Below are positions 2-27,856 of a stretch of 27,865 nucleotides of DNA, one piece after another; position 1 is the first letter of the stretch; every line of letters starts with the position of its first letter. Source of the DNA: a virus; the IMG/VR virus record IMGVR_UViG_3300045988_046995, positions 1 through 27,865 of that record; one strand, 5' to 3'. The notes beneath the pieces are model-generated. The model saw only the letters and a list, made by a program, of their open reading frames with translations. It was not told the origin of the DNA and did no database searches. Made by a program: the position numbers and the translations under genes.

Positions 2-316
2 GTAGCTGAAACTTTTATATCTAATCCGAATAACTATCCTTGTATAAATCATAAGGATGAAAATAAATCAAATAATAATGTAAGTAATTTAGAATGGTGT
101 ACTTATAATTATAATAATAATTATGGAACTCATAATCTGCGAGCTGGATATAGTCATAAGAAACCAATACTGCAATTACTAAATGGAATAGTTATTAAAA
201 GATGGGATTCAGCAATAGATGCTGAGAGAGAACTAAATATACAATCTAGAAATATTGTAAAGGTTCTTAAAGGGCAGCGAAAAACAGCAGGAGGATATAT
301 GTGAACATATGAGTAA
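2..316 (+). CDS. HNH/NUMOD4-type homing endonuclease, 5'-truncated by the window edge (table 4)
   Basis: Reads VAETFISNPNNYPCINHKDENKSNNNVSNLEWC...GYM[TGA=W]TYE*. It is nearly identical at nucleotide level to 1063-1096 in the paralogue at 840-1406. The TGA at 302-304 falls in the typical C-terminal G-x-x-W-x-Y ending. Stop is TAA at 314-316. Confidence 0.8.
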
Positions 317-617
317 TAACGAAATTGTAGAAAAGTACTATCCATTTATTATGGAACTTAAGCAAAAATTTGGTGCAGATGATGACTGTGTTCAAATGAT
401 TTTTGTAGAAATACTAGAGTATTCAAATCCAAAATTAAATCAGCTTGATAGTAAAAATGAATTGAAATTTTGGATTACAAGATTATTTAAGAATTATTGG
501 TTTAGTAAAACAAGTAGATATTACTATACTTATAAGAAATATTATGAGATTGTTAAAGAACCACTTGAACAACAAAATGACGAATTGGAGGATTGATTAA
601 ATGAAACGGAAGATTAA
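309..617 (+). CDS. Sigma-70 region-2-like protein (ECF-like sigma2 domain only)
   Basis: DDDCVQMIFVEILEY...ELKFWITRLFKNYWFSKTSRYY resembles the region 2.1-2.4 pattern of group-4 sigma factors. No region 4 is present. The gene ends at TGA 594-596 under table 11 or at TAA 615-617 under table 4, so the 3' end is ambiguous. Confidence 0.5.
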
Positions 618-858
618 TATTGACGATTTACTTACTGAGTATGAAATAGACTATAGTATGTTTACAAATATGGATGATAGACTATTAAGTATATATCCAA
701 AATGACTTGAGCTTAATAAGGCAGATAAGACAGTAATCATATTATATGCTGAATATCACAGTTATAGAGAAGTGGGAAGAATATTAGGAATTAGTCATAC
801 TACCATAGCAAGGTGTATAAGTAATATTAGAAATAAAATATGTGGAAGGATATGTTAG
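601..858 (+). CDS. Sigma-70 region-4-like HTH protein (sigma4 domain only)
   Basis: DKTVIILYAEYHSYREVGRILGISHTTIARCISNIRNKI is a classic region 4.2 helix-turn-helix. It has its own ATG at 601, in a different frame from 309-617. There is one in-frame TGA at 703-705 (YPK[W]LEL). Stop is TAG at 856-858. Confidence 0.6.
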
Positions 859-1406
859 AAGAATGGAAACAATACAAGGATTTTCCTTTTGAAGTAAGTA
901 CTCTTGGTAGAGTTAGAACTATGCAAAGGGTAGTCAAATATAAGGATGGCAGAGAATATAATTACTCAAGTAAGATTATAAAACAATACATTACTAGAGA
1001 ATATAGTTATATTGTGATTTCACTGCATTCCAAAACATATAATTTTAGAGTGAATAGATTAGTAGCTGAAACGTTTATATCAAATCCAAATAATTTACCT
1101 CAAGTAAACCATATTGACGAAAATAAGTTAAACAATAGAGTTGAAAATCTGGAGTGGTGTACTGCTAAGTATAATTTAAATTATGGCACTCATACTAAGA
1201 AAGTTGTTGAAAAATTAACAAATGGCCCACTTGCTAAAAAAGTAGCTCAGTATGACTTAGATGGCAACCTAATTAAAGTATGAGATTCTATAAGAGAAAT
1301 AAAAAGATGCTTGGGATATGATAATGGAACCATTTCCAAGTTTTGTAGGAACAAAGTAAATTGGAAACATTGTTATGGGTTTATTTGGAAGTATTTTAAT
1401 AATTAA
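840..1406 (+). CDS. HNH/NUMOD4-type homing endonuclease (alternative start 852)
   Basis: Contains EEWKQYKDFPFEVSTLGRVRT (NUMOD4-like), [35 protein letters not shown] (HNH core) and a C-terminal IENR-like tail. The tail is read through TGA 1281-1283 (LIKV[W]DSIREI...GFIWKYFNN*). Stop is TAA. Confidence 0.85.
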
Positions 1407-2132: not shown

Positions 2133-2493
2133 ATATCTTTATGCTGCAAGGTTATTTAACAAAGGATGGTCAAGGAATAAAGTAAGTGAAGAACTTCAAA
2201 GTAAATATAATGTAAGCCAATCAACGGCTGCAAGATATATTGGAGAAGCTTATAAGATAATTGCTGAAAAGAATGATAACCTTATAAAAAATCTTAGACA
2301 TATACAATTATCAAGATTGGAATCATTACTGGATACTGCTATTAGTAAGGGAGATATTAGAGCTGCAAATGAGATTATTAAGACTATAAATAGTATGTTT
2401 GGATTAAATCAACCTGAGACTATTGTAGCTATTCAGAATAATGAAGTCCAGTTTAAATTTGGAGATCCAATTAACAATGACAAAAATATATAA
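2041..2493 (+). CDS. Terminase small subunit (putative)
   Basis: Has a basic GRPKK N-terminus, an HTH-like segment (WSRNKVSEELQSKYNVSQSTAARYIGEAY) and a helical oligomerisation-like tail. It lies immediately upstream of TerL and overlaps it. No TGA. Confidence 0.6.
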   Translation: MKVKNQELPKKTGRPKKAEVEKEQIDEVKTKYLYAARLFNKGWSRNKVSEELQSKYNVSQSTAARYIGEAYKIIAEKNDNLIKNLRHIQLSRLESLLDTAISKGDIRAANEIIKTINSMFGLNQPETIVAIQNNEVQFKFGDPINNDKNI

Positions 2494-3724
2494 AGGATAT
2501 AGCCCATTTATCTATCAATTAAAGGTACATACTGCTTTAGAGCACTCTTATAGGTCTGGAAAAATATTTACTGTAAAAGCAAAGAGACAATGTGGTAAAT
2601 CCTTTATGGCAGAAAATGAACTATTACGATTTTCAATTAACTATCCTGGAAGTATTAGCTGTATTGTTGAACCAACTCTTACTAACTCCAGAAAGATATT
2701 TAAAGAGTTAGTAAAGGCATTAGATGGCACAGATATTATTAAGAAAAAGAATGAATCTTTGCTTGAGATTGAATTTACTAATGGGAGTGAAATACTATTT
2801 AAATCTGCTGAGCAAAAAGATTCATTACGAGGATTTACAGTTAGTGGAATATTAGTAATTGACGAAGCTGCTTATATATCAGATGAAGTATACGAAATTT
2901 TAACACCTATCGCTGATGTATGGAATGCTCCAATACTTATAATTAGTACTCCAAGGTTTAGAGAAGGATTCTTTTATGAATGCTTTAAAAAGGGCTTTGA
3001 TGGTAATTTTAGTAAATATTATCAATCCTTTGATTGAGCATTAGAAGATACTTCTATGCTGTTAAGTGAGGATAAACTTGAAATGTATCGCCTTACAACC
3101 TCCAAAAATAAATTTAGAACTGAATATCTTGGAGAGTTTGCAGATGATGATGGTTGCCTATTTAATAATATAGCTAACTGTATAATTGATAAAAAACCTG
3201 AATATCATAATCTCTATATTGGAGTTGACTGGGCTACTGGTTCTGGTAAAGACTATACTTGTATTACAGCTTTAAATGAAAATGGGCAGATGGTCTTTAT
3301 AAAGTATTTTAACGACAAAACTCCAACAGAACAAGTTGATTTACTGACAAATATATTCACTGAGTATCAGGGATTTATAAAGATAGTTCAAGTTGAACAA
3401 AACTCAATAGGTTCAGTGTTTTATGATATTCTTGTAAAAAGGAATCCTAAATTACGGATAGTTAAGTTTTTAACTACTAATAAGTCTAAGGCAGCTATTG
3501 TAAATAAGCTACAAGCTGCATTAGAAAACGAAAAGATTGGTATTTTAAAGGATGATAAACTATTAAATGAATTAAGACTATATGAAGCCAGTTATAATCC
3601 AAAGACTGGAAATGTTAGTTATAATGCTCCATCTGGATTTAATGATGATACTTGTATATCTTTAATGTTAGCTTATGATGCTTTAAATACAAATAAAGGA
3701 ACTTATAATATTGCAATTAAATAA
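2477..3724 (+). CDS. terL: Terminase large subunit
   Basis: Walker A-like KAKRQCGKS, Walker B ILVIDEAAY, and nuclease-domain motifs GVDWATGSGKDY and FNDDTCISLMLAY. Track fragments 2441-3037 and 3056-3724 are in the same frame and are joined through a single TGA at 3035-3037 (YQSFD[W]ALED). Confidence 0.9.
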
Positions 3725-7303: not shown

Positions 7304-7783
7304 ATGGAAGTATATAAAGACATTAAAGGATATGAGGGACTTTACCAGATAAGTAATACTGGTAAAGTCTTCTCTATAAAAAACAATAAAGAACTGAAGA
7401 GTGGATATACTCCAGCTGGATATACAAAAGTTCAATTGTGAAAGAATAAGTCTGGCAAGTGATTCAATATTCATAGATTAGTTGCAGAAGCGTTTATTCC
7501 AAACGTAGAAAACTTACCACAAGTAAATCATATAAATGAGATAAAGGAGGATAATAGGGTTGATAATTTAGAATGATGTACAGCTCAATATAATGTTACT
7601 TATGGAAATAGATTAAATAATAATAAAAAACCTGTAATACAGGAAAGCTTAGATGGCACTTTTATAAAGAGATGAAATTCAATTGCTGATACTAAAAAAT
7701 ATGGGTTTGTTCCCCAAAATATAGGACAGTGTTGTATTGGTAATATTTCACAACATAAAGGATATATTTGAAAATATGCGTAA
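7304..7783 (+). CDS. HNH/NUMOD4-type homing endonuclease
   Basis: Contains [53 protein letters not shown][W]C and a C-terminal GYI[W]KYA*. All five Trp codons are TGA and none is TGG. It is free-standing between two tail genes. Confidence 0.85.
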
Positions 7784-11132: not shown

Positions 11133-13900
11133 TGGCACAAACAGAAATTAAAAAAGTAATTAGTATTGATACTAAGTCAAGTAATAAGTCAATAAACTCT
11201 TTAAAGAAAGATATTGACGCATTATCTAGTTCTCTGAATGATTTAGAGATTGGTACTAAGGAATATAATGAAACTCTTGCATTACTAGGTAAAAGACAAT
11301 CAGAGTTCAATAAAATTAATGAGCAGATAGCAAGATCTTCGAGAACTACTGCTCAAAGATTTGAAAGTGTAGCTAAAATATCCACTGGCTTAGCTAGTGG
11401 ATATGGTGCTGCAACTGCTGCTATTACTTTATTTGGGAAAGAATCAGAAGATTTAAATAAAGTAATGGTTAAGTTACAATCTACTATTGCTTTAGTTCAA
11501 GGTGTGGGAGGTATAAAAGATTTATTAGAAGAATTACCCACTTTAGGTAATTGGTTTAAGAAATTAACTGATTTTATTTCCCCATTTAATACAGGATTGA
11601 ATAATGCTGCCAAAAACCTTAATCAGATTGATACATCTAAGCTTAATGGCATTGGCACATCTGTTGGTAATGTTGGAACTGAATTAGGTAATATCTCTAA
11701 AGTAGTCAAGGATTTAGAAGGCACCAATATTAATCTCAGAGGTGGAATGGTTCAGGGTATGCTTGGAACTCCTGCTGAAATATCTGCTTCTAATAAGAGT
11801 GTATCTAATACGATTCCAATTATAGGTAAATTAGGAGAAACTGCAAAAAAGTCTTTTAAAGAAGTAAAACCTACATTTACTACAGTTGCTGAATTTTTAA
11901 AGGAAGCAGCAAAAGAGACTGGAACTCCAGCAGAGAGAATGCAGAAAGCTGCTAAACGTTTAGGTGTAGATCTTGCTGAATTAAAGGAAAATGTAGAAAA
12001 AGGCATTCCAACTTTGCGAAAAGGAGCAGAGGCTCAGAAAGCAATGGCTGAAGCTTCAGAACAAGCTGCTTCTGGAGTAGGTAAAGTTAAAACTGCACTT
12101 AAAACTATTGGTAATGTAACTGTATGAATTGCATTAGCTACAGCTATTGGAGTAGCTATTAATAAGATAATAGAGTATATATCCTCAATAAAATCAGCTG
12201 AAAAGGAGGCTGCTGAATTTAGAAAGTCTATTACAGATACTACTAATCAGATTGCTTCTAAATCTATAGCTATCTTTAGAGAGCTCCAAATAGCTTACGA
12301 AAGGGTTGGAGATTCTGCAGATGCTAAGCGTAAGTTTATAGAGCAATATTCAGATAAGATTAAAGAGACTGGTTTAAATATCACTGATGTAAAGACTGCA
12401 GAAGATGCGTTTGTAAATAATACTGGTAATTATGTAGAAGCATTAACTGCAAGAGCAAAAGCTCAGGCTATTGAACAGGCTGCAATTAAGCTTTATGAGG
12501 AGTATTTAAACAAACGTACTGAACTGGAGAATCAAATTTCTGATACAAGTTTTGGAGAGGTATCTGCTTGGCAGGCTTTTAAAGCTACAGCAATGTTCTG
12601 AAAAGATTATTCAAATACAATTTATGAGTATACAAAGCAAAATAAAGAGAATACTTATAAACAGTTGGATGATTTAAATAAAGACATTGAGAAAAGGCTT
12701 AAAAAGCTATTTGAGGATGTAGCAGATACTAATAAAAAGTATGGTGGGTTCTTTAATATTCCAACTATTACAAAGAACACTACTGAAGCTAAGAAGGTAA
12801 TAAATGAATTTGATGAATGGCTTCAAAAGAGATTAGAGGATAAAGACCCAGTAGATGAACTTGAAGATGAATATATTAGACTATTAGCATTAGCTATTAA
12901 GTATAATAGGGGAATTGAAGAGGTAGAAGCTTGGCATCAGGAAGAACTTAAAAAGATTAGAGATAAAGCTAGAGCTGATGAAGAAGCTAAGCGTAAAGCA
13001 GATGCAGATAAAGCTTGGAATGATCTACAGTCTGAATTAAAAAGGATTAGAGATTTATCTTCTACAAGTAATTTGAGAGAGCCAAGAGAGCAGACCTTTC
13101 AGACTACTTATACTCAAGGTATATCGAAAGCATTTGGATTGGCTGGAGATTATGAAGGGACTGGTTATAAATTTACATATCAGAGTAGAGAGGACTTAGA
13201 GAATCAATACAATGCTCAAATTGAATACAATAACAACTTACTCTCATTAACTCAAGGTAGAATAGAGCAAGAGAATGCCTTATTAAATCAGCAATTAATG
13301 AATGAACAATTAACTGCTGAACAAAAAGAGGAAATTCAAAGAACTCTTACTGAGAATAATATGGCCTTATCAGATGCTCAATTAGCTAATGAACAGGCAA
13401 ATACTCAGGCTTATCAAAATCTTCAAAAAGCAAGACAGCAAGCTTTACAGGGAACTTTATCTGTAGCTTCAAGCATTGCAGGAAGTATGGCAAGTATTTG
13501 GGGAGAAGAGAGTAAAGTTGGAAAAGGATTTGCTACTGCACAAGCTTTAATTGACACTTATTCAGCAGCAAATAGCGCATACTCTGCTATGGCAGGAATT
13601 CCTATTGTAGGTCCTGCTTTAGGTATTGCTGCAGCTGCAGCCGCAGTAGTTGCAGGTATTGCAAATGTTAAAAAGATTTGAGAAGTAGATGAATCAGGTG
13701 CAAGTGGAGTGAGTGGAGCATCTGCAGCAGTGGCAGCACCAGCTGCTTTAAATACAGCTCCTGTTGAATATACTCGAAACTTACTTGGAGATAAAGAAAC
13801 TGACCTTTTAAATGAACCTGTTAAGTGTTATGTTGTTGAATCTGACATTACTTCAGCTCAAACTAAGGTAGCAGTTACTGAATCTAATGCTTCATTCTAA
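11132..13900 (+). CDS. Tape measure protein (922 aa)
   Basis: Coiled-coil rich, with Gly/Ala hydrophobic segments (GLASGYGAATAAITLFG; GIPIVGPALGIAAAAAAVVAGIA). Track ORFs 11132, 12665 and 13709 are in the same frame. The gaps, translated by hand, are open, with TGAs at 12125, 12599 and 13679. Confidence 0.8.
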
Positions 13901-13910
13901 AAATATTTAG

Positions 13911-13960
13911 TGTAACTTTTTTATTCTTATTAACTACAAAATATGAGTAAAAAGGTTACA
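13911..13960. repeat. 50-nt imperfect palindrome, copy B
   Basis: tgtaacttttttattc / gagtaaaaaggttaca forms a 16-bp stem if two G-U pairs are allowed. It begins 10 nt after the tape-measure stop. Its first 13 nt are identical to copy A. Confidence 0.75.
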
Positions 13961-14012
13961 TTAGATATTCTAAAAATATTACAAATTTATAAAGTGCTAT
14001 ATATTAATAAAA

Positions 14013-14606
14013 ATGGAAATTACTTATAATGATCTTCCATTATTTCAGGCAGTGATTACTGATGATTGTGATGGAATAGAATATGTTGCTTTAACAAGTA
14101 AACCAGCTACACAAGTTAACTGGGTTGCTTTTAGTAATTCTCAGAAGTTCTCGATGGATGAAGATAAGCATTTAGTAACATCTTGCTTAATGTTAAGTGA
14201 TACTCCAATTTTCAGACGAGATGAGAAACTCGGAGAATACTACATACAGTATGATAAGGAAACTCTTCGTAAAATGGCAGAGAAGATGCTGTATGATAAG
14301 AGAACTACAGATGTAAATATTGAACATTTAGAAGATTCTGATTTAAATGGAATTACTCTACAAGAAATCTATGTAAAGGATATTAATAGAGGAATATCTC
14401 CAGTTGAATTCCAGGATGTTCCTGATGGTTCTTTATTTGTCACTTATAAAGTAGATAATCAAGTTATTTGAGATGCAATTAAAGCTGGTAAGTTTAAAGG
14501 GTTCTCAATTGAAGGTTTATTTACTTTAGAGAGAAAGTCTGATGAATATGACGAAATAAAAGAGATCCTTAATATGATTAAGAAGATAAAAAGAGTTAAA
14601 CATTAA
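14013..14606 (+). CDS. XkdF-like prohead serine protease (putative)
   Basis: DVNIEHLEDS...GSLFVTYKVDNQVI[W]DAIKAGKFKGFSIEGLF matches the XkdF-family C-terminal pattern (W..vk.G...GfSieG). The conserved Trp is the TGA at 14469-14471. It lies upstream of the scaffold and capsid genes. Confidence 0.7.
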
Positions 14607-14619
14607 AATTATTAATTAA

Positions 14620-15222
14620 ATGAGCAAATTCACAAGAATCAAGCTTGAATTGGCTAAAATGCTTGCAAAGTTCAGTGATATTAAAACTGATAAGGCAGTA
14701 CTTACTTGGGATTCAGATGAAGACTTACGCGCTGGTATGGATGTATATGTTCAGGATGAGAACGGAGAATACAAACCTGCTGAGGACGGTGAGTATGTAA
14801 CTGAGGATGGAAAGACGATTGTTGTTAAAGACGGTAAAGTAGAGTCTGTAACTGATCCTAAAGCTGAGGTTGATCCAGAAGAAGCAGCTAAAGCAGAAGT
14901 TGATGCTGCTTGTGGAAAACGCAAGGTAGAAACTGCTGAAGAGCCAGTTGATCCTGAAGTAGCTACTGATGGTGACAAAGAAACTGTAACTGATGCAATT
15001 GATGCAATTCATCGCGAAATTAATGAGCTTTATGACATTGTTGATAAGCTTGTTAAGAAAGTAGCTGAATTAGAGGGTAAATCTGAAGCTACAGAAAAGA
15101 CGGTTGAAAAGATGAGCAAAATGAGTGCTGCATTTTCAGCTGAGGAACAGATAGAAGGCAAAGCTTCAATAATGACTGGTAATCCTGTTATTGATAAAAA
15201 GCTTAAAAACTTTATTGGTTAA
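14620..15222 (+). CDS. Scaffolding protein (putative)
   Basis: Acidic, helical and low-complexity (AEVDPEEAAKAEVD..., INELYDIVDKLVKKVAELEGK). It sits between the protease and the capsid gene. No TGA. Confidence 0.6.
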   Translation: MSKFTRIKLELAKMLAKFSDIKTDKAVLTWDSDEDLRAGMDVYVQDENGEYKPAEDGEYVTEDGKTIVVKDGKVESVTDPKAEVDPEEAAKAEVDAACGKRKVETAEEPVDPEVATDGDKETVTDAIDAIHREINELYDIVDKLVKKVAELEGKSEATEKTVEKMSKMSAAFSAEEQIEGKASIMTGNPVIDKKLKNFIG

Positions 15223-15244
15223 TTATTAAATTATTTATAAAATT

Positions 15245-16150
15245 ATGGCAAATAGTCCTGTAATGACTAGTCTTACTGCTTATGTAGAGCAGAGACGTCT
15301 TCCTCTTATTAAAGAGGCTGTATTAAAGGCTAAGAGTGCTTCGTTGTTCAATCTTCAAACTGACATCAAAACTAGTGCTGCTCTTAACCTGTTATCAACT
15401 GCTATTCAGTTTGGCGATGGCCTAGCTTGTGGTTGGGATGAAGCTGGAACTCAGACTCTTTCTCAGAGAATTCTAGCTACTGGTAATATTAAGATCAATA
15501 TGGCATATTGTGATAAAGAGATGCTTAAATACTGGACTCAGTATCAAGTACGAGTAGCTGCTGGTCAGAAGACGCTTCCTTTTGAAGAGGATTTCGTAAA
15601 TGCAGTAGTTGAGAACGTTAAGGCTGCTATCGAGACTGCTATTTGGCAGGGTGATACTGCTTCTGAAACAAATAACCTGAAGTATTTTGATGGTCTGTTA
15701 AAGATCTTAAAAGATGCTGCTGGTACTGTTGATGTAACGATTACTGGTACTTCTGCTTACGATGACATTATGGCTGTTTATAACGCTATTCCTGAGAAAG
15801 TACTTGATGGTGCTTCTATCTTAGTAGGCGCTGATACCTTCCGTAAATTTATCCAGGAGTTAGTTGCTAAGAACTACTACCACTATAGTGGTGAGAATCT
15901 TAACGGTGAGATTATGCTTCCTGGTTCACAGGTTAAGGTTATTGCTGTTAATGGTCTTAATGGAACTGATAAGATTGTTGCTGGTCAGTTAGATAAGAAC
16001 TTCTTCTATGGTTGCGATATGATGAACGATGAAGAGAAGTTTGAATTGTGGTATTCACAAGATTTCCGCGAATTTAGATTAGCTATTGAATTTAACGCTG
16101 GCGTACAGGTTGCATTCCCTGATGAGGTAGTTCTTGGTGCCAAAGCCTAA
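15245..16150 (+). CDS. Major capsid protein (HK97-fold type, about 301 aa)
   Basis: Position after the protease and scaffold, size, and composition all fit. Codon usage is visibly biased and less AT-rich. The 4 Trp codons are all TGG and there is no TGA. Confidence 0.75.
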   Translation: MANSPVMTSLTAYVEQRRLPLIKEAVLKAKSASLFNLQTDIKTSAALNLLSTAIQFGDGLACGWDEAGTQTLSQRILATGNIKINMAYCDKEMLKYWTQYQVRVAAGQKTLPFEEDFVNAVVENVKAAIETAIWQGDTASETNNLKYFDGLLKILKDAAGTVDVTITGTSAYDDIMAVYNAIPEKVLDGASILVGADTFRKFIQELVAKNYYHYSGENLNGEIMLPGSQVKVIAVNGLNGTDKIVAGQLDKNFFYGCDMMNDEEKFELWYSQDFREFRLAIEFNAGVQVAFPDEVVLGAKA

Positions 16151-20600: not shown

Positions 20601-21320
20601 ATGATTATACTTAAGAATACTAAAAATACACAAACTTTCTATGTTAGTAAGAAATGTGGTATTGAATCTGGACAACTTCCTGTTGGTTCTTATACTAAGA
20701 TTGAAGCAGATGAAAGATTCCAACCTAAAGGTAATTACATTTCTGAAGAGAAAGCAGAAGAGTTAATTAATACTAAAGTAACAGAAAGTATTGAAGATCA
20801 AGTTCCTCCTTTAGTAGATCAATCTATTGATGCTAAGCTTGTTCCAATTAATACTGAGATTACTAATCTTAAAGGGGAAGTTGAGGAGTTAGAAACTTCT
20901 AAGATGGAAGTATTCCAAGCTAATCAACCTCTATCTTTACATAGAAATGGAGAAGGTTTGCAACTATCTGTAGATTTAAGTAATTATGCAACTAAAGCAG
21001 AAATTCCTGATACTAGTGATTTTGCTACTAAAGAAGAGCTTACAGCTGTTGAAAGTGAAGTTGGAAATAATTCTTCTAAGATTACAGCTATTGAAAGCAA
21101 ACAAGAAGAGGATGGACTAAAGATTGATGCATTAGATAAGGAAGTTGGGACATTAGATGCAAATAAAGCAGACAAATCGGAACTATCTAATTATGTAACA
21201 TTAGAAGTATATAATGCTAAGGTTTCAGAATTAGAAGCTGCTATTCAAGCTTTACAGGCACAAATCGGAACTATCTCAACTACTCTTGATACAATTAATG
21301 GTGAAATTCCAAATGAATAG
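20601..21320 (+). CDS. Coiled-coil fibre-like protein (second fibre module)
   Basis: Shares motifs with the fibre at 16804-19236: [25 protein letters not shown] versus QAPLAFNEDKSQLSVDLSGY, and [17 protein letters not shown] versus KTKQEEDGDKIDSLDKE. No TGA. Confidence 0.65.
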
Positions 21321-21834
21321 AGTATTAACAAATTATCCTAACTATAGTGTATCTTCTACAGGAGATGTATATAGTAACCCATTGACTTTTAAAGATTCTA
21401 TTGGAAGAACCAGAAAACAAATACATAAAAAGCTAAAACAGCATATAGATAAATATGGCTATAATTATGTAATTCTAGTATCTGGCTTAGATAAACCTAA
21501 AGCTATTAAAGTTCACAGACTAGTAGCAGAAGCATTTATTCCAAATCCTGACAATCTACCATATGTTAACCATATAAATGAAAATAAGACAGATAATAGG
21601 GTAGAAAATTTAGAATGATGTGATACAAAGTATAATAATACATATGGAACTAGAATAAATAGATGTATTGATAAAATTAGTAAACCTGTAGGGCTATTTA
21701 TTAATGATTTACTAGTTAAAACATATAAAAATGCAATTGAAACATCAATAGATGGGTATACTCATAGTAGAGTTATAGATTGTCTTAAAGGAAGAACAGA
21801 CACTTATAAAGGGGTAAAATTTAAATATATCTAA
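21313..21834 (+). CDS. HNH/NUMOD4-type homing endonuclease
   Basis: Contains [14 protein letters not shown] and [34 protein letters not shown][W]C, with the TGA at 21616-21618, then continues to ...YKGVKFKYI*. It overlaps the stop of the upstream gene. Confidence 0.85.
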
Positions 21835-23008: not shown

Positions 23009-23401
23009 ATGAATTATACTTTATTAATGCAAAATACAATTACTAAAGAAGTTTATGTATATAACTTAGAAAATCAGAATTATGCTGAAAATATCTACTA
23101 TAAGTTTGATATTACATTATCTGATGATATGCCTGATGGTGAATATCAGTATATTCTGTTTAGTAATCCAAATAAACTTGAAGTAATTGTAGATGTAAAT
23201 AATCCTATGCAGTCAGAGCTATATGGTAATCCAGTTATTCTGGTAACTTATGAAAATACTCTTACTACAGGAACACAGATATTAGTTGCTGGTAAACCTA
23301 TACCTGTATTGAGTTCAGGACTAATAAGAGTTGGAGATTATCAGAATAATAAATACCAATACGATAAACAAAACAAATATATGGCTTATGAGCGAAAATA
23401 A
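23009..23401 (+). CDS. Hypothetical protein (130 aa)
   Basis: Uninterrupted ORF and first gene after the spacer. No motif recognised. Confidence 0.5.
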   Translation: MNYTLLMQNTITKEVYVYNLENQNYAENIYYKFDITLSDDMPDGEYQYILFSNPNKLEVIVDVNNPMQSELYGNPVILVTYENTLTTGTQILVAGKPIPVLSSGLIRVGDYQNNKYQYDKQNKYMAYERK

Positions 23402-24479
23402 AACAAAAGTACAATTAAGTGCAATTGATCCTGTTGTAGTGTCAAATTTAGTACTTCCTGTAGAATCGAGAAAAAGGGGTTCTGATTGGATTTCTTGGGG
23501 TGAAGATAATCGCTATCCATTATATCTATGGGATTTATACTTAAATGTAGCTACTCTTCAATCTATCATTAATGGGACTGCTGACTTTATTGTTGGTAAT
23601 GATGTTATATGTAATGCACCAGGATTTGAAGTAACTGTAAATAAGAAAGGTGAAACTATTATGGATATTATGCGTAAAGTATCTAAAGATAAGATGATTT
23701 TTGGAGGATATGCTTTACAAATAATTAGAGATATGTTAGGTAGAGTTTCAGAGATCTATCATCTTGACTTTATGAAGATTCGTTCTGATGAAAAGAATGA
23801 AGTATTCTATTATGCCGATGATTGGTCTGCTTGGTCTATTAAAGCTATCAAATATCCAAAATTTAATTATTCAGATGATAATCCTACAAGTGTTGTTTAT
23901 AATAAGGGCTATATAACAAGAAAAGTATATCCAGTCCCTGTTTATGGTGCAGCTATCCTATCTTGCGAAACTGAGAAGAATATTAATGAGTTCCATCTAA
24001 ATTCTCTTCATAATGGATTTATGGGCAATCTTATCATTAACTTTAATAATGGACAGCCTACAGACGAAGTTAAAGAAGAGATTGAGATGAATATCAATGA
24101 GAAATTCTCAGGATTTCAAAATGCTGGTAGAGTTCTTATTTCATATAATGATGATGAAACAAATAAGACTACTATTGAGCGTTTAGACTCTGATGATTTT
24201 GATGAGAAATATAGTGCTTTATCTGATAGGACAAGAGAACAGATATTCTGCGCATTTAGAGCTAATAGTGTACTTTTTGGCCTTAACTACTCAAGTGGAT
24301 TCAACGAACAAGAATTTAATGAAGCTTTTAAACTTTATAATCGTACAGTAGTTAGACCAATTCAGGTCGAAATAGTAGATACATTTGATAAGATATTTGG
24401 AATGAAAGGTTCAATAACTATAACTCCTTTTAGCTTAACTCCAAATGGACAAGAAGATAGCAAACAAAATGTTGAATAG
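23388..24479 (+). CDS. Portal protein (putative, small PBSX/P2-size class)
   Basis: The N-terminal region GSDWISWGEDNRYPLYLWDLYLNVATLQSIINGTADFIVG resembles the portal pattern (W..fG.dN.yP..l..l...s..h..ii..k). Likely start is ATG 23388. The 5 Trp codons are all TGG and there is no TGA. Confidence 0.65.
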   Translation: MSENKTKVQLSAIDPVVVSNLVLPVESRKRGSDWISWGEDNRYPLYLWDLYLNVATLQSIINGTADFIVGNDVICNAPGFEVTVNKKGETIMDIMRKVSKDKMIFGGYALQIIRDMLGRVSEIYHLDFMKIRSDEKNEVFYYADDWSAWSIKAIKYPKFNYSDDNPTSVVYNKGYITRKVYPVPVYGAAILSCETEKNINEFHLNSLHNGFMGNLIINFNNGQPTDEVKEEIEMNINEKFSGFQNAGRVLISYNDDETNKTTIERLDSDDFDEKYSALSDRTREQIFCAFRANSVLFGLNYSSGFNEQEFNEAFKLYNRTVVRPIQVEIVDTFDKIFGMKGSITITPFSLTPNGQEDSKQNVE

Positions 24480-25137
24480 CCATATTATATACTGTCATAA
24501 AAATCTATTAAACAATAAGCTATATTTTGGCATAACCTCTTTAAAACCAATAGAACGGTGAGGTTCTAAAGGGCAAGGTTATAAAAACAATAAACATTTT
24601 AATAGAGCAATTAAGTATTATGGGTGAGACAGTTTTGAACACATTATAGTTAAAGAAGGATTACCAGAAGCTTGTGCTAAAACATTAGAGAGAATATTAA
24701 TCTATAAGTATAACACTACCAATCCAAATAATGGCTATAATTTAACTGAAGGTGGAGAAGGAGTGCTTGGTTGGCATCACTCAGAGATTACCAAAGAAAA
24801 AATGAGCTTAAACGCAAAAGGAGTAAATAATAATTTTTATGGTAAATACCATACCAAAGACTCTAAACAGAAAATGCGTTTAGCTAGATTAGGTAAATCC
24901 CCTGCCAATAAAGGTACTTCTTTATCTGAAGAAGCTAAATTAGCTATATCTGAACAACGATGCAAAGAAGTTGTTCAATACGATTTAGATGGCAATATTA
25001 TAAACACATATAAATCAGCTAAAGAAGCTGGAGAGATTAATAACTTTTATAGTTCCAATATAACAAGAGCTTGTAGAACTGGTAAATCATATAAAAATTT
25101 TAATTGACAATATAAATATGGAACAAATGGATTTTAG
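24469..25137 (+). CDS. GIY-YIG homing endonuclease with NUMOD3 repeats and an IENR-like tail
   Basis: Contains IIYCHKN..NKLYFGIT (GIY...YIG), ER[W]GSKG, AIKYYG[W]DSFEH, NGYNLTEGG, the repeats HHSEITKEKMS / YHTKDSKQKMR / SLSEEAKLAIS, and the tail YKSAKEAGE...KNFN[W]QYKYGTNGF*. In-frame TGAs lie at 24559, 24625 and 25105. Confidence 0.85.
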
Positions 25138-25806: not shown

Positions 25807-26232
25807 ATGACCTACTATGAGATAATTAGCAATTTAAAAGCTTGTGCATTAGAAGAGCCAAACATCAATTTTGTAGGAAGTAAAGACATTTATGAGTTAA
25901 ATAGCTTACCAACTATTGAGTATAATGTGTTCTATATAACACCTAATACTTTTAGTGTAGATGAAGATACTATTACTTACTCTTTAAACCTATACTTCGT
26001 ATCAAGATGGGATGAGACTGATAACAACCAATTGGAGGAACAGTCAGCAGGTATGCTTGCACTGCAAAATATAATTAATCGTTTTAATAACCTATATCCA
26101 GAAGTTGAAATAGCTTATCCTTTAATTTATACTCCATTCTATCAAAAGTTCAAAGATATTACCTGCGGAGTGTTTGTTAGAGCTGATTTCCAAGTTGACA
26201 ACACACTGGGTACTTGCACTGATGATATGTAA
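25807..26232 (+). CDS. Hypothetical virion-module protein (141 aa)
   Basis: Uninterrupted ORF. Its stop overlaps the next start (TAATG at 26230-26234). Confidence 0.5.
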   Translation: MTYYEIISNLKACALEEPNINFVGSKDIYELNSLPTIEYNVFYITPNTFSVDEDTITYSLNLYFVSRWDETDNNQLEEQSAGMLALQNIINRFNNLYPEVEIAYPLIYTPFYQKFKDITCGVFVRADFQVDNTLGTCTDDM

Positions 26233-26888
26233 TGGAAAATAAATTAAATTGGTTTGGTAAAGTATTAGAATGGGTTGATAAATATGGATTACTAAAGATA
26301 TTTAAAGCAGGGATTGGATTAATATTTATATCCTATGTAATGGTTATTACACTTAATCCCTCTATTGTTTATAATAAGGTTGTAACCTATATTGAACAAA
26401 CTCACAATTCTAAAACTATTGCAAGAAATGAAGCAACTTTAAAGATTAAATATAAGCTTAAAGAATTGCTTCAAAGCACAAATGCTGATAGAGCTTGGGT
26501 TATTGAATATCATAATGGAACTACTGGATTAGGGGGACTTCCATTTACTTATGGAGTAATGAATGCAGAGGAAGTAAAACCAGGAATAAGATCTGTAAGT
26601 AGCCATTATAAAGATTTCCTGTTATCTGACTATACTTCAATTATAGAGTTTTCTAAGAATGATGGATGGTTTGGTAATATAGATAGTTTAGAAGCAGATG
26701 ATCCAAGATTATATTATGCATTTAAATCCAACAGAGTGAATGAAATAGCAGTATTTTATTTAAAGACTGAGGATAAAGATATTGGCATTTTAGGTTTATC
26801 ATTCTGTGATACACCTATGCCTTATGATACTTGAGTACATCTAAGAAGAGCTGGAATACAGATAAGTATAATTTTAAATAAAATATAA
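26232..26888 (+). CDS. N-terminally membrane-anchored protein with a globular (GAF-like?) C-terminal domain, adjacent to the lysis genes
   Basis: Has one TM helix (AGIGLIFISYVMVITL) and then about 150 aa of soluble domain. It is read through TGA 26832-26834 (PYDT[W]VHLRRAG...) to TAA 26886-26888. Confidence 0.55.
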
Positions 26889-26889
26889 T

Positions 26890-27048
26890 ATGAAATATTG
26901 GTTAAAATATGTAATAGTAGTTGTACTATTAATGATTGCATTTTTGTTAATTAAAGTAATTCCTTTTTGGATTACTATTAGTTTAACGTTATTTGGAGCA
27001 GTGTGCTATTTTATTTATCTTTATAAACTGCATAATTCATACAAATAA
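26890..27048 (+). CDS. Holin (putative, 52 aa, two TM segments)
   Basis: MKYWLKYVIVVVLLMIAFLLIKVIPFWITISLTLFGAVCYFIYLYKLHNSYK* has two hydrophobic helices and a charged C-terminus. Its stop overlaps the endolysin ATG (TAATG at 27046-27050). It is below the 60-aa cutoff of the track. Confidence 0.55.
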   Translation: MKYWLKYVIVVVLLMIAFLLIKVIPFWITISLTLFGAVCYFIYLYKLHNSYK

Positions 27049-27500
27049 TGAAGTATTTCACACTCGAAGAATTAACAAGATCTGATACTGCTTCAATTAA
27101 GCATATAGATAACACTCCAGATGAGAGTATAACAGAGCACCTGATAGAGTTGGTCAAGAAGCTTTTAGACCCAATAAGAGAGAGATGGGCAAAGTATTGT
27201 GATGACAATCAGCTTGGCAATGCAGGCATCAGGATTTCCTCTGGTTTTAGGAATAAGGAGCTTAATAAAGCAGTGGGAGGATCTTCAACTTCTGCTCATT
27301 TAACAGGGTATGCAGCAGATATATCTCCAATTAATGGTAATATGAAAGTATTCCAAAGTTGGATTGCTGAAGCTATTGAAGAATTTGATTTCGACCAGTT
27401 GATATATGAAAGGCCTAGGAATGGTATAGCTAGTTGAATACACTTGGGATTAAAGAATAAAGACGGGATGCAAAGACGACAGAAATTTACTATTATATAA
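27048..27500 (+). CDS. Endolysin, peptidase M15 (LAS-type Zn D,D- or L,D-peptidase)
   Basis: SSGFRNKELNKAVGGSSTSAHLTGYAADI matches the SxxR...GG...SxHxxGxAxD motif. The C-terminal GIAS[W]IHLG is read through TGA 27435-27437. Stop is TAA at 27498-27500. Confidence 0.85.
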
Positions 27501-27502
27501 TT

Positions 27503-27841
27503 ATGGATTCCAAATCAAGTAAATTGCTTCATAAGACTAAGAGGAAAGTAAGAAGTGAAGAATATTTAAAGTACCAGAGATATATCCGCTCAAAAGAATT
27601 TAAGGCGATTAGAGAGCAAGTTTTGTTGAGGGATAACTACCACTGCCAAACTTGTAATTGGTGCGTTGAGGAAGGCGGAAACAGGTCATTATCGGTACAT
27701 CATAAGAGGTATGACAATTTATATGAGGAGCAAAACCATTTGGAAGATTTGATAACATTATGTTCAGTATGTCATAAAGCTATACATTCGGCAGTAAGTA
27801 ATTATCAAAGGTTTAATAAAAAAGAAAAGGAGGGCAAATAA
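27503..27841 (+). CDS. Small HNH endonuclease (terminase-associated type)
   Basis: CQTCNWC...LSVHHKRY...LITLCSVCHKAIH is a CxxC...HH...CxxCH zinc-finger HNH motif. No TGA. Confidence 0.8.
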   Translation: MDSKSSKLLHKTKRKVRSEEYLKYQRYIRSKEFKAIREQVLLRDNYHCQTCNWCVEEGGNRSLSVHHKRYDNLYEEQNHLEDLITLCSVCHKAIHSAVSNYQRFNKKEKEGK

Positions 27842-27856
27842 CCCTCCTTTTTGTTT
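27825..27856 (+). terminator. Rho-independent terminator
   Basis: aaaaggaggg / ccctcctttt forms a perfect 10-bp stem with a 7-nt loop that contains the TAA stop. A T-run follows. Confidence 0.75.

What the first reader, a model, noticed from the sequence alone, without database searches (positions are those of the whole stretch)
27048..27500. TGA codons sit at positions that would inactivate key enzymes if read as stops (endolysin, TerL, protease)
In the endolysin, TGA 27435-27437 lies immediately before the C-terminal His of S[W]IHLG. LAS/M15 peptidases bind Zn through the H-x-x-G-x-A-x-D motif (present here as SAHLTGYAAD) plus a C-terminal His, so termination would remove a likely metal ligand. 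In TerL, the single TGA (3035-3037) lies between the ATPase domain (Walker B at about 2860-2885) and the nuclease domain (GVDWATG at about 3225), so termination would give an ATPase-only fragment. In the XkdF protease, the TGA (14469-14471) is the conserved Trp and termination removes the GFSIEG C-terminus. DNA packaging, prohead maturation and lysis would therefore all depend on TGA read-through. That fits the published idea that recoding can act as a timer for late or lytic functions. Here it can be seen at the level of single catalytic elements.
Basis: partly seen in the sequence, partly recalled or inferred. Interest (0 to 1): 0.7.

Follow-up and report, generated by a model that had tools for sequence, protein, structure and literature searches.

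The report
Trp-coding TGA codons in gut phage
This is most of the genome of an uncultivated, roughly 31-kb phage (probably of gut Bacteroidota) that reads TGA as tryptophan, so the "stop" codons in its lysin, terminase and protease are ordinary Trp codons of a known recoding type, not specially placed switches.

Summary
The sequence facts hold. TGA 27435-27437 (lysin), 3035-3037 (TerL) and 14469-14471 (XkdF-like protease) are in frame, and each sits at a conserved Trp upstream of essential residues. TGA means Trp here: it alternates with TGG at 68 of 93 Trp sites across about 45 related contigs.

The placement does not look designed. TGA codons are spread evenly along genes. The protease TGA is a recent polymorphism (8 of 34 relatives). 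The three TerL Trp sites swap TGA and TGG among relatives. The TerL TGA also lies inside the ATPase domain, not between domains.

The lysin TGA is fixed in 31/31 family members. However, 29% of neutral A/G synonymous sites are also fixed for A, so this is only suggestive.

The "timer" idea is the published Borges et al. hypothesis, and this family fits it only partly. A helicase-like early gene is TGA-free, but so are the late head genes (capsid, scaffold, portal). TGA therefore behaves more like a costly codon excluded from abundant proteins.

No suppressor tRNA was found in any family contig fetched, so the decoder is unknown. Verdict: a new member of a known kind, of low-to-moderate interest.

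The parts
27048..27500 (+). Endolysin gene, 150 aa when TGA is read as Trp. It is a Peptidase_M15_3 / LAS-fold zinc peptidase.
   Evidence: Pfam PF08291 matches at E=2.7e-14. An AlphaFold2 model of the 95%-identical homologue P0001 has pLDDT 94.5. The best Foldseek hit is 1lbu, a Zn DD-peptidase, followed by Hedgehog-N and LdcB/VanY.
27297..27320 (+). H84-x6-D91 motif (SAHLTGYAAD), the first two predicted Zn ligands.
   Evidence: H84 and D91 are invariant. They align with positions 154 and 161 of 1lbu. The homologous H-x6-D plus a distal His are modelled as the Zn ligands in YcbK (PMC3927764).
27435..27437 (+). In-frame TGA encoding W130 of the lysin.
   Evidence: W130 is invariant in 28 full-length homologues. 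The codon is TGA in 31/31 family contigs and TGG in 2 outgroup lysins.
27441..27443 (+). CAC encoding H132, the predicted third Zn ligand, two codons after the TGA.
   Evidence: H132 is invariant. It lies on strand 131-135 of the model. Its role as a ligand is inferred from the LAS family pattern and was not measured.
26890..27048 (+). 52-aa ORF whose sequence shows two hydrophobic stretches, read as a holin-like protein. Its end overlaps the lysin start. Its two Trp codons are both TGG.
   Evidence: The sequence is given. It has no family match. The holin role is inferred from size, hydrophobicity and position.
26232..26888 (+). 218-aa protein with a hydrophobic N-terminal stretch, upstream of the lysis genes. 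Its TGA at 26832-26834 (W201) is fixed in the family.
   Evidence: W201 is TGA in 31/31 relatives, while the other four Trp sites of the gene are polymorphic. There is no Pfam or PHROG match.
2441..3724 (+). Large terminase gene, 427 aa when TGA is read as Trp.
   Evidence: Pfam Terminase_6N covers residues 49-243 and Terminase_6C covers 260-393. PDB matches are the P74-26 ATPase domain 4zni and the terminase large-subunit chains 5tge and 5m1f, which align to residues 250-417.
3035..3037 (+). In-frame TGA encoding W199 of TerL, inside the C-terminal part of the ATPase domain.
   Evidence: locate it. Among relatives it is TGA in 31 and TGG in 3, and the other two Trp sites (161, 264) also switch between TGA and TGG.
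14013..14606 (+). XkdF-like prohead protease gene, 197 aa when TGA is read as Trp.
   Evidence: Pfam PF14550 matches at E=2.6e-9. H105 and S165 are invariant.
14469..14471 (+). In-frame TGA encoding W153 of the protease. It is a recent polymorphism.
   Evidence: The codon is TGA in 8 and TGG in 26 family contigs. Both states occur among sequences that are 99.5% identical. Standard-code Bacteroidota relatives have TGG.
15245..16150 (+). Major capsid protein gene. It is free of TGA, with four TGG codons.
   Evidence: PHROG 11320/1623 match and there is a weak Phage_capsid hit. In 33 family contigs all four Trp sites are TGG and none is TGA.
27503..27841 (+). HNH endonuclease gene directly after the lysin.
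   Evidence: Pfam PF01844 matches at E=2e-5.
27824..27852 (.). Terminator-like hairpin, detected on both strands, at the end of the rightward gene block.
   Evidence: One search reports 11 pairs and 2 sites found against 0.2 expected. In relatives a block of leftward genes follows at this point.

Best explanation
The window is about 28 kb of a roughly 31-kb uncultivated tailed-phage genome, from a family that is abundant in metagenome virus collections. The family uses genetic code 4, in which TGA means Trp. The three flagged TGAs are ordinary Trp codons at conserved Trp residues, and they interchange freely with TGG among relatives.

Shown:
- Reading TGA as stop would truncate 18 of the 32 genes, including the lysin (loss of invariant H132), TerL and the protease.
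- Virion production as a whole therefore needs TGA to be decoded.

Inferred:
- The host is most likely a standard-code member of Bacteroidota.
- The phage carries no detectable suppressor tRNA. Decoding must therefore come from a host component or from an unidentified phage factor. One candidate host component is read-through by tRNA-Trp(CCA); variants with a 4-bp anticodon stem boost UGA read-through.
- In this setting TGA is a usable but costly codon. It is under-used relative to the genome's A/G bias. It is excluded from abundant head proteins and from the helicase-like gene on the opposite strand. It is tolerated in low-copy proteins such as TerL, the lysin, tail proteins and homing endonucleases.
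- The dependence of lysis and packaging on TGA decoding may add gating or attenuation of those enzymes. The exact codon positions are not the evolved feature.
For: TGA means Trp:
- ORFs merge into full-length TerL, tape measure, a 1118-aa protein and others when TGA is read as sense. Plus-strand ORF cover rises from 0.83 to 1.00.
- No gene ends in TGA; the stops are 27 TAA and 5 TAG.
- TGA aligns with invariant Trp in the lysin and protease.
- TGA alternates with TGG at 68 of 93 Trp sites across about 45 contigs.

Placement is not special:
- Positions along genes are uniform.
- The protease site is TGA in only 8 of 34 relatives.
- The TerL sites swap between TGA and TGG.

TGA is costly:
- The TGA fraction of Trp codons is 0.39, against a 0.67 A-ending fraction at Lys/Glu/Gln codons (odds ratio 0.33).
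- Family-wide, 6% of Trp sites are fixed for TGA, against 29% of Lys/Glu/Gln sites fixed for A.
- Head genes have 1 TGA in 16 Trp codons, against 46 of 103 elsewhere (Fisher p=0.0045). From each gene's own A/G bias, 4.9 TGA would be expected.
- The capsid gene has 0 TGA in 33 family contigs.
- The helicase-like gene averages 0.04 TGA and 4.6 TGG in 26 contigs.

No decoder found:
- ARAGORN finds no tRNA in the window or in any related locus scanned, L001-L094 except L037.
- Rfam gives no tRNA-like hit even at E<=10.

Host:
- Six of seven genomic relatives of the protease are in Bacteroidota genomes, and all seven read through under the standard code with TGG at this Trp.
- Only 3 of 32 genes have a Shine-Dalgarno-like motif.
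- The phage carries a peptidoglycan peptidase, which argues against wall-less Mollicutes.

Known framework:
- Borges et al. describe code-4 phages on standard-code hosts, of which only 35% have a detectable suppressor tRNA.
[quoted passage not shown] Such tRNAs occur in standard-code bacteria, including a Bacteroides species.
Against: - The host is not identified. No CRISPR-spacer or prophage link was obtained, and TerL has no relative in the GTDB representative genomes.
- The decoder is unknown, so a true temporal switch cannot be excluded.
- The lysin TGA is fixed in 31/31 relatives across five different flanking sequence contexts.
- All 35 recoded TerL genes (34 family members plus the more distant recoded relative L036) keep at least one TGA.
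- Two of the four or five family-fixed TGA sites lie in the lysis region (Fisher p=0.057).
- These three points hint at selection to keep TGA in those genes, which a pure cost model does not predict.
- The head genes also prefer G-ending codons in general. Part of their TGG preference may therefore be ordinary codon bias.
Confidence: 0.6

Rival explanations
1. Timer or gate model (Borges et al.). Early in infection the cell reads TGA as stop, so only truncated, inactive lysin, TerL and tail proteins are made. A later change in decoding lets the full-length proteins appear, which sets the timing of packaging and lysis. Selection keeps a TGA in these genes.
For: - The lysin W130 codon is TGA in 31/31 relatives down to 51% identity, with varied flanking codons, while W47 is always TGG.
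- All 35 recoded TerL genes keep at least one TGA, although its position moves.
- The protein upstream of the lysis genes also has a family-fixed TGA.
- The helicase-like gene on the opposite strand is TGA-free in 25 of 26 relatives.
- Published precedent shows lysis genes preferentially recoded in crAss-like and Agate phages.
Against: - No switch machinery was found anywhere in the family: no tRNA, and no RF1- or TrpRS-like match among the proteins scanned (protein scans 7, 25, 26, 28, 52).
- Late head genes (capsid, scaffold, portal) are TGA-free, so the split is not early versus late.
- Regulator-like genes upstream of TerL, and a 53-aa gene in the leftward block, carry TGA.
- Fixation for TGA is not unusual against neutral A/G sites, of which 29% are fixed for A.
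- Zero TGA-free TerL genes is expected by chance with p of about 0.13 (own calculation from the counts).
Confidence: 0.25
2. The host itself uses code 4. TGA is then simply the host's second Trp codon, and nothing is gated or attenuated.
For: - No decoder is encoded by the phage.
- No gene ends in TGA.
- TGA and TGG interchange freely.
- The genome has low GC, about 30%.
Against: - Only 56% of genes carry TGA. Phages that share a recoded host's code have about 90%, and recoded phages on standard-code hosts have 26-71%.
- TGA is under-used relative to the A/G bias and is absent from the capsid and helicase-like genes.
- The known code-4 bacteria are wall-less Mollicutes, insect endosymbionts and one Patescibacteria family. 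This phage carries a peptidoglycan peptidase.
- The protease relatives are in standard-code Bacteroidota.
Confidence: 0.1
3. Programmed two-product read-through. The 129-aa lysin fragment, which lacks H132, and the full-length enzyme are both functional. The dead fragment would bind peptidoglycan or modulate lysis.
For: - The lysin TGA is fixed and sits late in the gene, at residue 130 of 150.
- The neighbouring 218-aa protein also has its fixed TGA near the C-terminus, at residue 201 of 218.
Against: - The same TGA/TGG mixing is seen genome-wide at 68 polymorphic sites, so no special mechanism is needed.
- TGA codons show no distinctive +4 base context (p=0.28).
- Truncation removes two strands of the core sheet in the model, so the fragment is unlikely to fold.
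Confidence: 0.05

Closest known systems
TGA-recoded (code 4) gut phages on standard-code hosts, e.g. the Agate and Jade clades (Borges et al., bioRxiv 10.1101/2021.08.26.457843)
   Same: - In-frame TGA reads as Trp in structural and lysis genes.
- TGA is not used as a stop.
- The genome has low GC.
- Homing endonuclease genes are rich in TGA.
- Part of the replication machinery stays in the standard code.
- Most such genomes also lack a detectable suppressor tRNA.
   Different: - Agate and Jade genomes are far larger (mean lengths well above 100 kb in the preprint); this family is about 31 kb.
- Jade carries a code-change module of tRNA, TrpRS and RF1; none is found here.
- Here the abundant head genes are specifically TGA-free, so recoding does not cover 'the structural genes' as a block.
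Small recoded phages of Bacteroidetes and Firmicutes: the Garnet, Amethyst and Topaz clades (same paper)
   Same: - Genome size is similar (22-34 kb).
- Bacteroidetes hosts are predicted for some of them.
- Structural and lysis genes form one recoded unit.
   Different: - The representatives described there are TAG-recoded (code 15), and some are temperate with an integrase.
- This family uses TGA, and no integrase was seen among the genes scanned.
- Membership of those clades was not tested.
crAss-like phages with TAG or TGA reassignment (Yutin et al. 2021; Peters et al. 2022, PMC9523058)
   Same: - They are Bacteroidota phages of low GC in which late genes need stop-codon reassignment.
- Late reassignment is supported by proteomics for TAG read as Gln.
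   Different: - Genomes are about 100 kb and unrelated in gene content.
- They often carry suppressor tRNAs.
- Experimental support exists for code 15 only, not for code 4.
LAS-family zinc peptidases: Peptidase_M15_3 / YcbK (MepK), Streptomyces albus DD-peptidase 1lbu, Ply500 and T5 endolysins
   Same: - H-x6-D plus a distal His.
- The Hedgehog/DD-peptidase fold.
- Small single-domain enzymes.
   Different: - The distal motif is W-x-H rather than H-x-H; YcbK likewise lacks H-x-H.
- There is an inserted helix between the two motifs.
- Substrate specificity is unknown.

Membership tests
Code-4 (TGA read as Trp) alternatively coded phage | In-frame TGA inside conserved genes, aligned with Trp in homologues. 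| tested here: met
   Lysin W130 and protease W153 are invariant Trp. TGA and TGG interchange at 68 of 93 Trp sites.
Code-4 (TGA read as Trp) alternatively coded phage | Gene lengths and coding density are restored when TGA is read as sense, and TGA is not used as a terminator. | tested here: met
   Plus-strand ORF cover rises from 0.83 to 1.00 and the longest ORF from 649 to 1135 aa. Of 32 genes, none ends in TGA.
Code-4 (TGA read as Trp) alternatively coded phage | Phage-encoded suppressor tRNA(UCA) or other code-change genes. This is frequent but not universal: 35% of code-4 genomes have a detectable suppressor tRNA. | tested here: not met
   No tRNA was found in the window or in any related locus scanned. 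Rfam gave no tRNA-like hit at E<=10. No RF- or TrpRS-like family appeared among the proteins scanned.
Code-4 (TGA read as Trp) alternatively coded phage | The host uses the standard code. | tested here: inconclusive
   The evidence is indirect only: protease relatives in standard-code Bacteroidota, few SD motifs, a peptidoglycan lysin, and TGA in only 56% of genes.
Recoding as a late-gene or lysis timer (Borges model) | Early genes are in the standard code and late structural and lysis genes are recoded. | tested here: inconclusive
   The helicase-like gene is TGA-free and the lysin and TerL are recoded. But the capsid, scaffold and portal genes are TGA-free, and small upstream regulator-like genes carry TGA.
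Recoding as a late-gene or lysis timer (Borges model) | TGA decoding changes with time during infection. | not testable with these tools
   This needs an infected culture or time-resolved proteomics.
LAS / Peptidase_M15_3 zinc peptidase | Family profile match above the curated cut-off, and the LAS fold. | tested here: met
   PF08291 scores 53.6 bits against a cut-off of 23.2. The model has pLDDT 94.5. The best Foldseek hit is 1lbu at E=2e-5.
LAS / Peptidase_M15_3 zinc peptidase | H-x(3-6)-D plus a distal His as the Zn ligands. | tested here: met
   H84, D91 and H132 are invariant. H84 and D91 align with 1lbu positions 154 and 161.
Large terminase (Terminase_6 type) | An N-terminal ATPase domain with Walker A and B motifs, and a C-terminal RNaseH-like nuclease domain. 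| tested here: met
   PF03237 covers residues 49-243 and PF17289 covers 260-393. PDB matches to the P74-26 ATPase domain (4zni) and to terminase large-subunit chains 5tge and 5m1f over residues 250-417 support this.
XkdF-like prohead protease (Peptidase_S78_2) | Family profile match, and conserved His then Ser. | tested here: met
   PF14550 scores 37.6 bits against a cut-off of 24. H105 and S165 are invariant. Their catalytic role is inferred by analogy with HK97-type proteases.

The most novel reading that the evidence does not exclude
This may be a tRNA-less code-4 phage family whose TGA codons are decoded only by leaky host tRNA-Trp read-through, or by an unknown phage factor. TGA would then act as a built-in translational attenuator that sorts the proteome into abundant (TGG-only) and scarce (TGA-containing) proteins. 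The family-fixed TGA two codons before the Zn-ligand His of the lysin would make a dead enzyme the default product, so read-through efficiency would set when lysis happens.
Probability: 0.2. Interest if true: 0.65.

Novelty: new member of a known kind. Interest (0 to 1): 0.3.

Why it matters
Under the standard code about half of this phage's genes are split or truncated. Several database homologues of the lysin and protease are stored as fragments that stop at the TGA. Recognising code 4 is therefore needed to annotate this abundant phage family correctly.

Two points are useful for the open question of how and why phages recode stop codons. First, no decoder was found in any contig of this small genome family. 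Second, TGA is excluded from the abundant head proteins rather than from early genes. A 31-kb genome with about 40 genes is a compact system in which to look for a non-tRNA route to TGA decoding, and in which to test 'timer' against 'attenuator'.

The specific claim that the codons target catalytic elements adds nothing beyond the fact that premature stops inactivate proteins.

Tried and rejected
- Close cultured relatives. Megablast of 25 kb against 50,697 phage records found nothing. The best TerL matches by tblastn are only 24-28% identical (Thermus, Meiothermus and Halorubrum phages).
- Host via genomes. TerL has no relative in 185,579 GTDB species genomes. The wide protease alignment was too divergent to search with. 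A narrower one gave distant Bacteroidota relatives, some in megabase-scale contigs.
- The 148-kb IMG/VR contig looked like a possible prophage in a host. The stretches fetched (L010, L090) hold only phage sequence on both sides, so it may be a concatemer and gives no host information.
- Suppressor tRNA. ARAGORN on the window and the related loci scanned, and Rfam at both the gathering threshold and E<=10, found nothing.
- Read-through context. The +4 base after TGA does not differ from that after TGG.
- Bacteroidota promoter motif TAnnTTTG: no match in the six intergenic gaps.
- 'Selected TGA in the lysin'. This looked strong at first (31/31), but the control with Lys/Glu/Gln A/G sites shows 29% of those are also fixed for A. 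I downgraded it to suggestive.
- TGA read as Gly (code 25) or selenocysteine. Rejected because TGA interchanges with TGG and aligns with Trp.
- Sequence-level alignment of H132 to the third ligand of 1lbu. Neither phmmer nor the profile search extends past residue 94, and the C-terminal fragment gives no Pfam match. The assignment rests on invariance and fold.
- The 573-aa protein of the leftward block has no PHROG match and only a sub-threshold Helicase_C_2 hit.
Full report
**What the window is**

The window has about 30% GC and all its genes are on the + strand. When TGA is read as sense, fragmented ORFs merge into full-length genes:
- a 427-aa large terminase (2441-3724);
- proteins of 726 aa, 1118 aa and 922 aa (the last is tape-measure-like);
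- an 810-aa fibre-like protein;
- a 197-aa XkdF-like protease (14013-14606);
- a 150-aa M15_3 peptidase (27048-27500).

Plus-strand ORF cover rises from 0.83 to 1.00. Pfam and PHROGs identify TerL, the protease, the capsid protein (15245-16150), the portal (23388-24479), the tape measure, the lysin, four HNH genes and one GIY-YIG homing endonuclease. Of 32 genes, 18 carry in-frame TGA (47 TGA against 72 TGG). None ends in TGA.

**Checking the observation**

- Lysin. TGA 27435-27437 is residue 130, followed by ATA and CAC (I131, H132). SAHLTGYAAD gives H84 and D91. In 28 full-length homologues of 50-97% identity, W130 and H132 are invariant. Many database homologues are 127 or 129 aa long and end exactly before this Trp, meaning they were called under the standard code.
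- Lysin structure. An AlphaFold2 model of the 95%-identical P0001 has pLDDT 94.5 and places H132 on strand 131-135. Its best structural match is the Zn DD-peptidase 1lbu, followed by Hedgehog-N, LdcB and VanY, which together define the LAS fold. H84 and D91 align with 1lbu positions 154 and 161. In the related YcbK protein, H-x6-D plus a distal His are modelled as the Zn ligands, and YcbK also lacks the H-x-H motif (PMC3927764). H132 as the third ligand is therefore well supported by inference. I could not measure the geometry.
- TerL. The single TGA (3035-3037, W199) follows Walker B and precedes GVDWATG. However, it lies inside the ATPase domain: Terminase_6N covers residues 49-243, and residue 191 aligns with position 204 of the P74-26 ATPase-domain construct 4ZNI (274 aa).
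- Protease. TGA 14469-14471 is W153. It is invariant in a 12-sequence alignment and lies upstream of the invariant G163-F-S165-x-x-G168. H105 is also invariant.

**Relatives and the meaning of TGA**

The lysin, TerL and protease recover about 45 related contigs, mostly 29-33 kb, from IMG/VR, ENA and Logan. The window lacks a block of about 4 kb of leftward genes that relatives carry between the lysin-HNH end and the genes upstream of TerL.

I aligned every window protein to all loci and read the codon under each Trp. Of 93 Trp sites with at least 15 relatives, 68 are polymorphic between TGA and TGG, 20 are fixed TGG and 5 are fixed TGA. This interchange, together with the alignment to invariant Trp, shows that TGA means Trp, not Gly or a stop.

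More distant relatives with 38-45% GC use the standard code with TGG. This matches the low-GC route to recoding proposed by Borges et al..

**Is the placement special?**

No.
- TGA positions along genes are uniform (mean 0.53).
- The protease TGA is found in only 8 of 34 relatives. Both states occur among sequences that are 99.5% identical.
- TerL has three Trp sites (161, 199, 264) and all three switch. All 35 recoded TerL genes (34 family members plus the more distant recoded relative L036) keep at least one TGA, but from the site frequencies that is expected with p of about 0.13.
- The lysin is the strongest case. W130 is TGA in 31/31 relatives down to 51% identity, within five different flanking contexts, while W47 is TGG in 33/33.
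- The neutral control tempers this. At conserved Lys/Glu/Gln sites, which have the same A/G choice, 223 of 772 (29%) are fixed for A across the family, including one of five such sites in the lysin itself.
- Among Trp sites, fixation for TGA is rare (4 of 69; 5 of 93). Two of the fixed sites lie in the lysis region: lysin W130 and W201 of the upstream 218-aa protein. The Fisher test gives p=0.057. This is suggestive, not demonstrated.

**What the distribution does show**

- TGA is under-used relative to the genome's A/G bias: 0.39 against 0.67, odds ratio 0.33.
- It is nearly absent from head genes. Family-wide, the capsid has 0 TGA and about 4 TGG per contig and the scaffold has 0 TGA. TGA makes up 1% of Trp codons in the 174-aa protein next to the capsid gene, 9% in the protease and 13% in the portal.
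- Within the window, head genes have 1 TGA in 16 Trp codons against 46 of 103 elsewhere (p=0.0045). From each gene's own A/G bias, 4.9 TGA would be expected.
- The 573-aa helicase-like gene of the leftward block is also TGA-free (0.04 TGA and 4.6 TGG per contig in 26 contigs).
- TGA is common in TerL, the lysin, tail and fibre proteins, and homing endonucleases.
- Small regulator-like genes upstream of TerL, and a 53-aa gene in the leftward block, also carry TGA.
- The split is therefore not simply early versus late. It follows expected protein abundance at least as well.

**The decoder**

- ARAGORN finds no tRNA in the window or in any related locus scanned.
- Rfam finds nothing tRNA-like even at E<=10.
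- No release-factor or TrpRS family appears in the protein scans.
- The +4 base context of TGA does not differ from that of TGG.
- Borges et al. detected suppressor tRNAs in only 35% of code-4 phages, so absence is not unprecedented. Absence across every contig fetched for a small genome family is still notable.

**Host**

There is no direct link to a host. Indirect evidence points to standard-code Bacteroidota:
- Six of the seven genomic relatives of the protease are in Tannerellaceae, Ferruginibacter (two genomes), Agriterribacter, Chitinophagaceae and the Bacteroidales genus Ca. Scybalousia. The seventh is in a Brevundimonas-labelled metagenome bin. All seven have TGG at this Trp.
- Only 3 of 32 genes have an SD-like motif.
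- A peptidoglycan peptidase makes wall-less Mollicutes unlikely hosts.
- Only 56% of genes carry TGA. That lies within the 26-71% range reported for recoded phages on standard-code hosts, and below the roughly 90% seen when phage and host share the code.

**Comparison with what is known**

This is a small TGA-recoded phage of the kind catalogued by Borges et al.. They already proposed that recoding delays structural and lysis proteins. Proteomic validation exists only for TAG read as Gln (PMC9523058). What this family adds is the lack of any detectable decoder and the TGA-free head genes.

**Verdict**

This is a new member of a known kind, with interest 0.3.

Noticed in passing
window 840-1406, 7304-7783, 21298-21834, 24445-25137, 27503-27841: There are five free-standing homing-endonuclease genes (four HNH, one GIY-YIG) between structural genes of a genome of only about 31 kb. 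They are rich in TGA; for example, 7304-7783 has 5 TGA and 0 TGG. Their presence varies among relatives. Borges et al. also found an intron endonuclease preferentially recoded in Agate phages.
   Followed up: partly
L001 11061-14111 (absent from the window; the window's end aligns to about L001 11071 and its start to about L001 15104): Relatives carry a block of about 4 kb of leftward genes that is missing from the window. It includes a 573-aa protein with Walker A-like and DExH-like sequence motifs (read by eye) and only a sub-threshold helicase hit, TGA-free in 25 of 26 contigs. It also includes a 53-aa gene whose single Trp codon is TGA in 28/28 contigs.
   Followed up: partly
window 26232-26888 (TGA at 26832-26834): This 218-aa protein of unknown family has a hydrophobic N-terminal stretch and lies just upstream of the holin-like ORF and the lysin. 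Its TGA at residue 201 is fixed in 31/31 relatives, while its other four Trp sites are polymorphic.
   Followed up: partly
L010 and L090 (IMG/VR contig 3300045988_175865, 148,631 bp): A 148-kb 'viral' contig holds this 31-kb phage type. The stretch examined in detail (L010) has only phage sequence on both sides. It may be a concatemer of related genomes rather than a prophage in a host.
   Followed up: partly
window 2441-24479: The gene order is unusual. TerL is followed by large tail or unknown proteins and the tape measure. Then come the protease, scaffold and capsid genes, then the fibres. The portal gene lies about 20 kb downstream of TerL.
   Followed up: no
window 12000-16150: The head-gene region has higher GC (0.35 against 0.27-0.31 elsewhere). 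The capsid gene prefers G-ending Lys/Glu/Gln codons (A-ending fraction 0.34 against 0.67 genome-wide). This looks like expression-linked codon bias running parallel to its avoidance of TGA.
   Followed up: partly
window 27824-27852: A terminator-like hairpin, detected on both strands, lies right after the last rightward gene. In relatives the convergent leftward block begins at this point. Rfam gives a weak, sub-threshold 'sraA' match over the same hairpin.
   Followed up: no
window 309-617 and 601-858: The first two small genes (one is HTH or sigma-region-4-like in relatives) are, with the 1118-aa protein gene at 7776, the only genes with an SD-like motif, and theirs are the clearest (AGGAGG, GGAGG). 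The remaining 29 genes have none.
   Followed up: no
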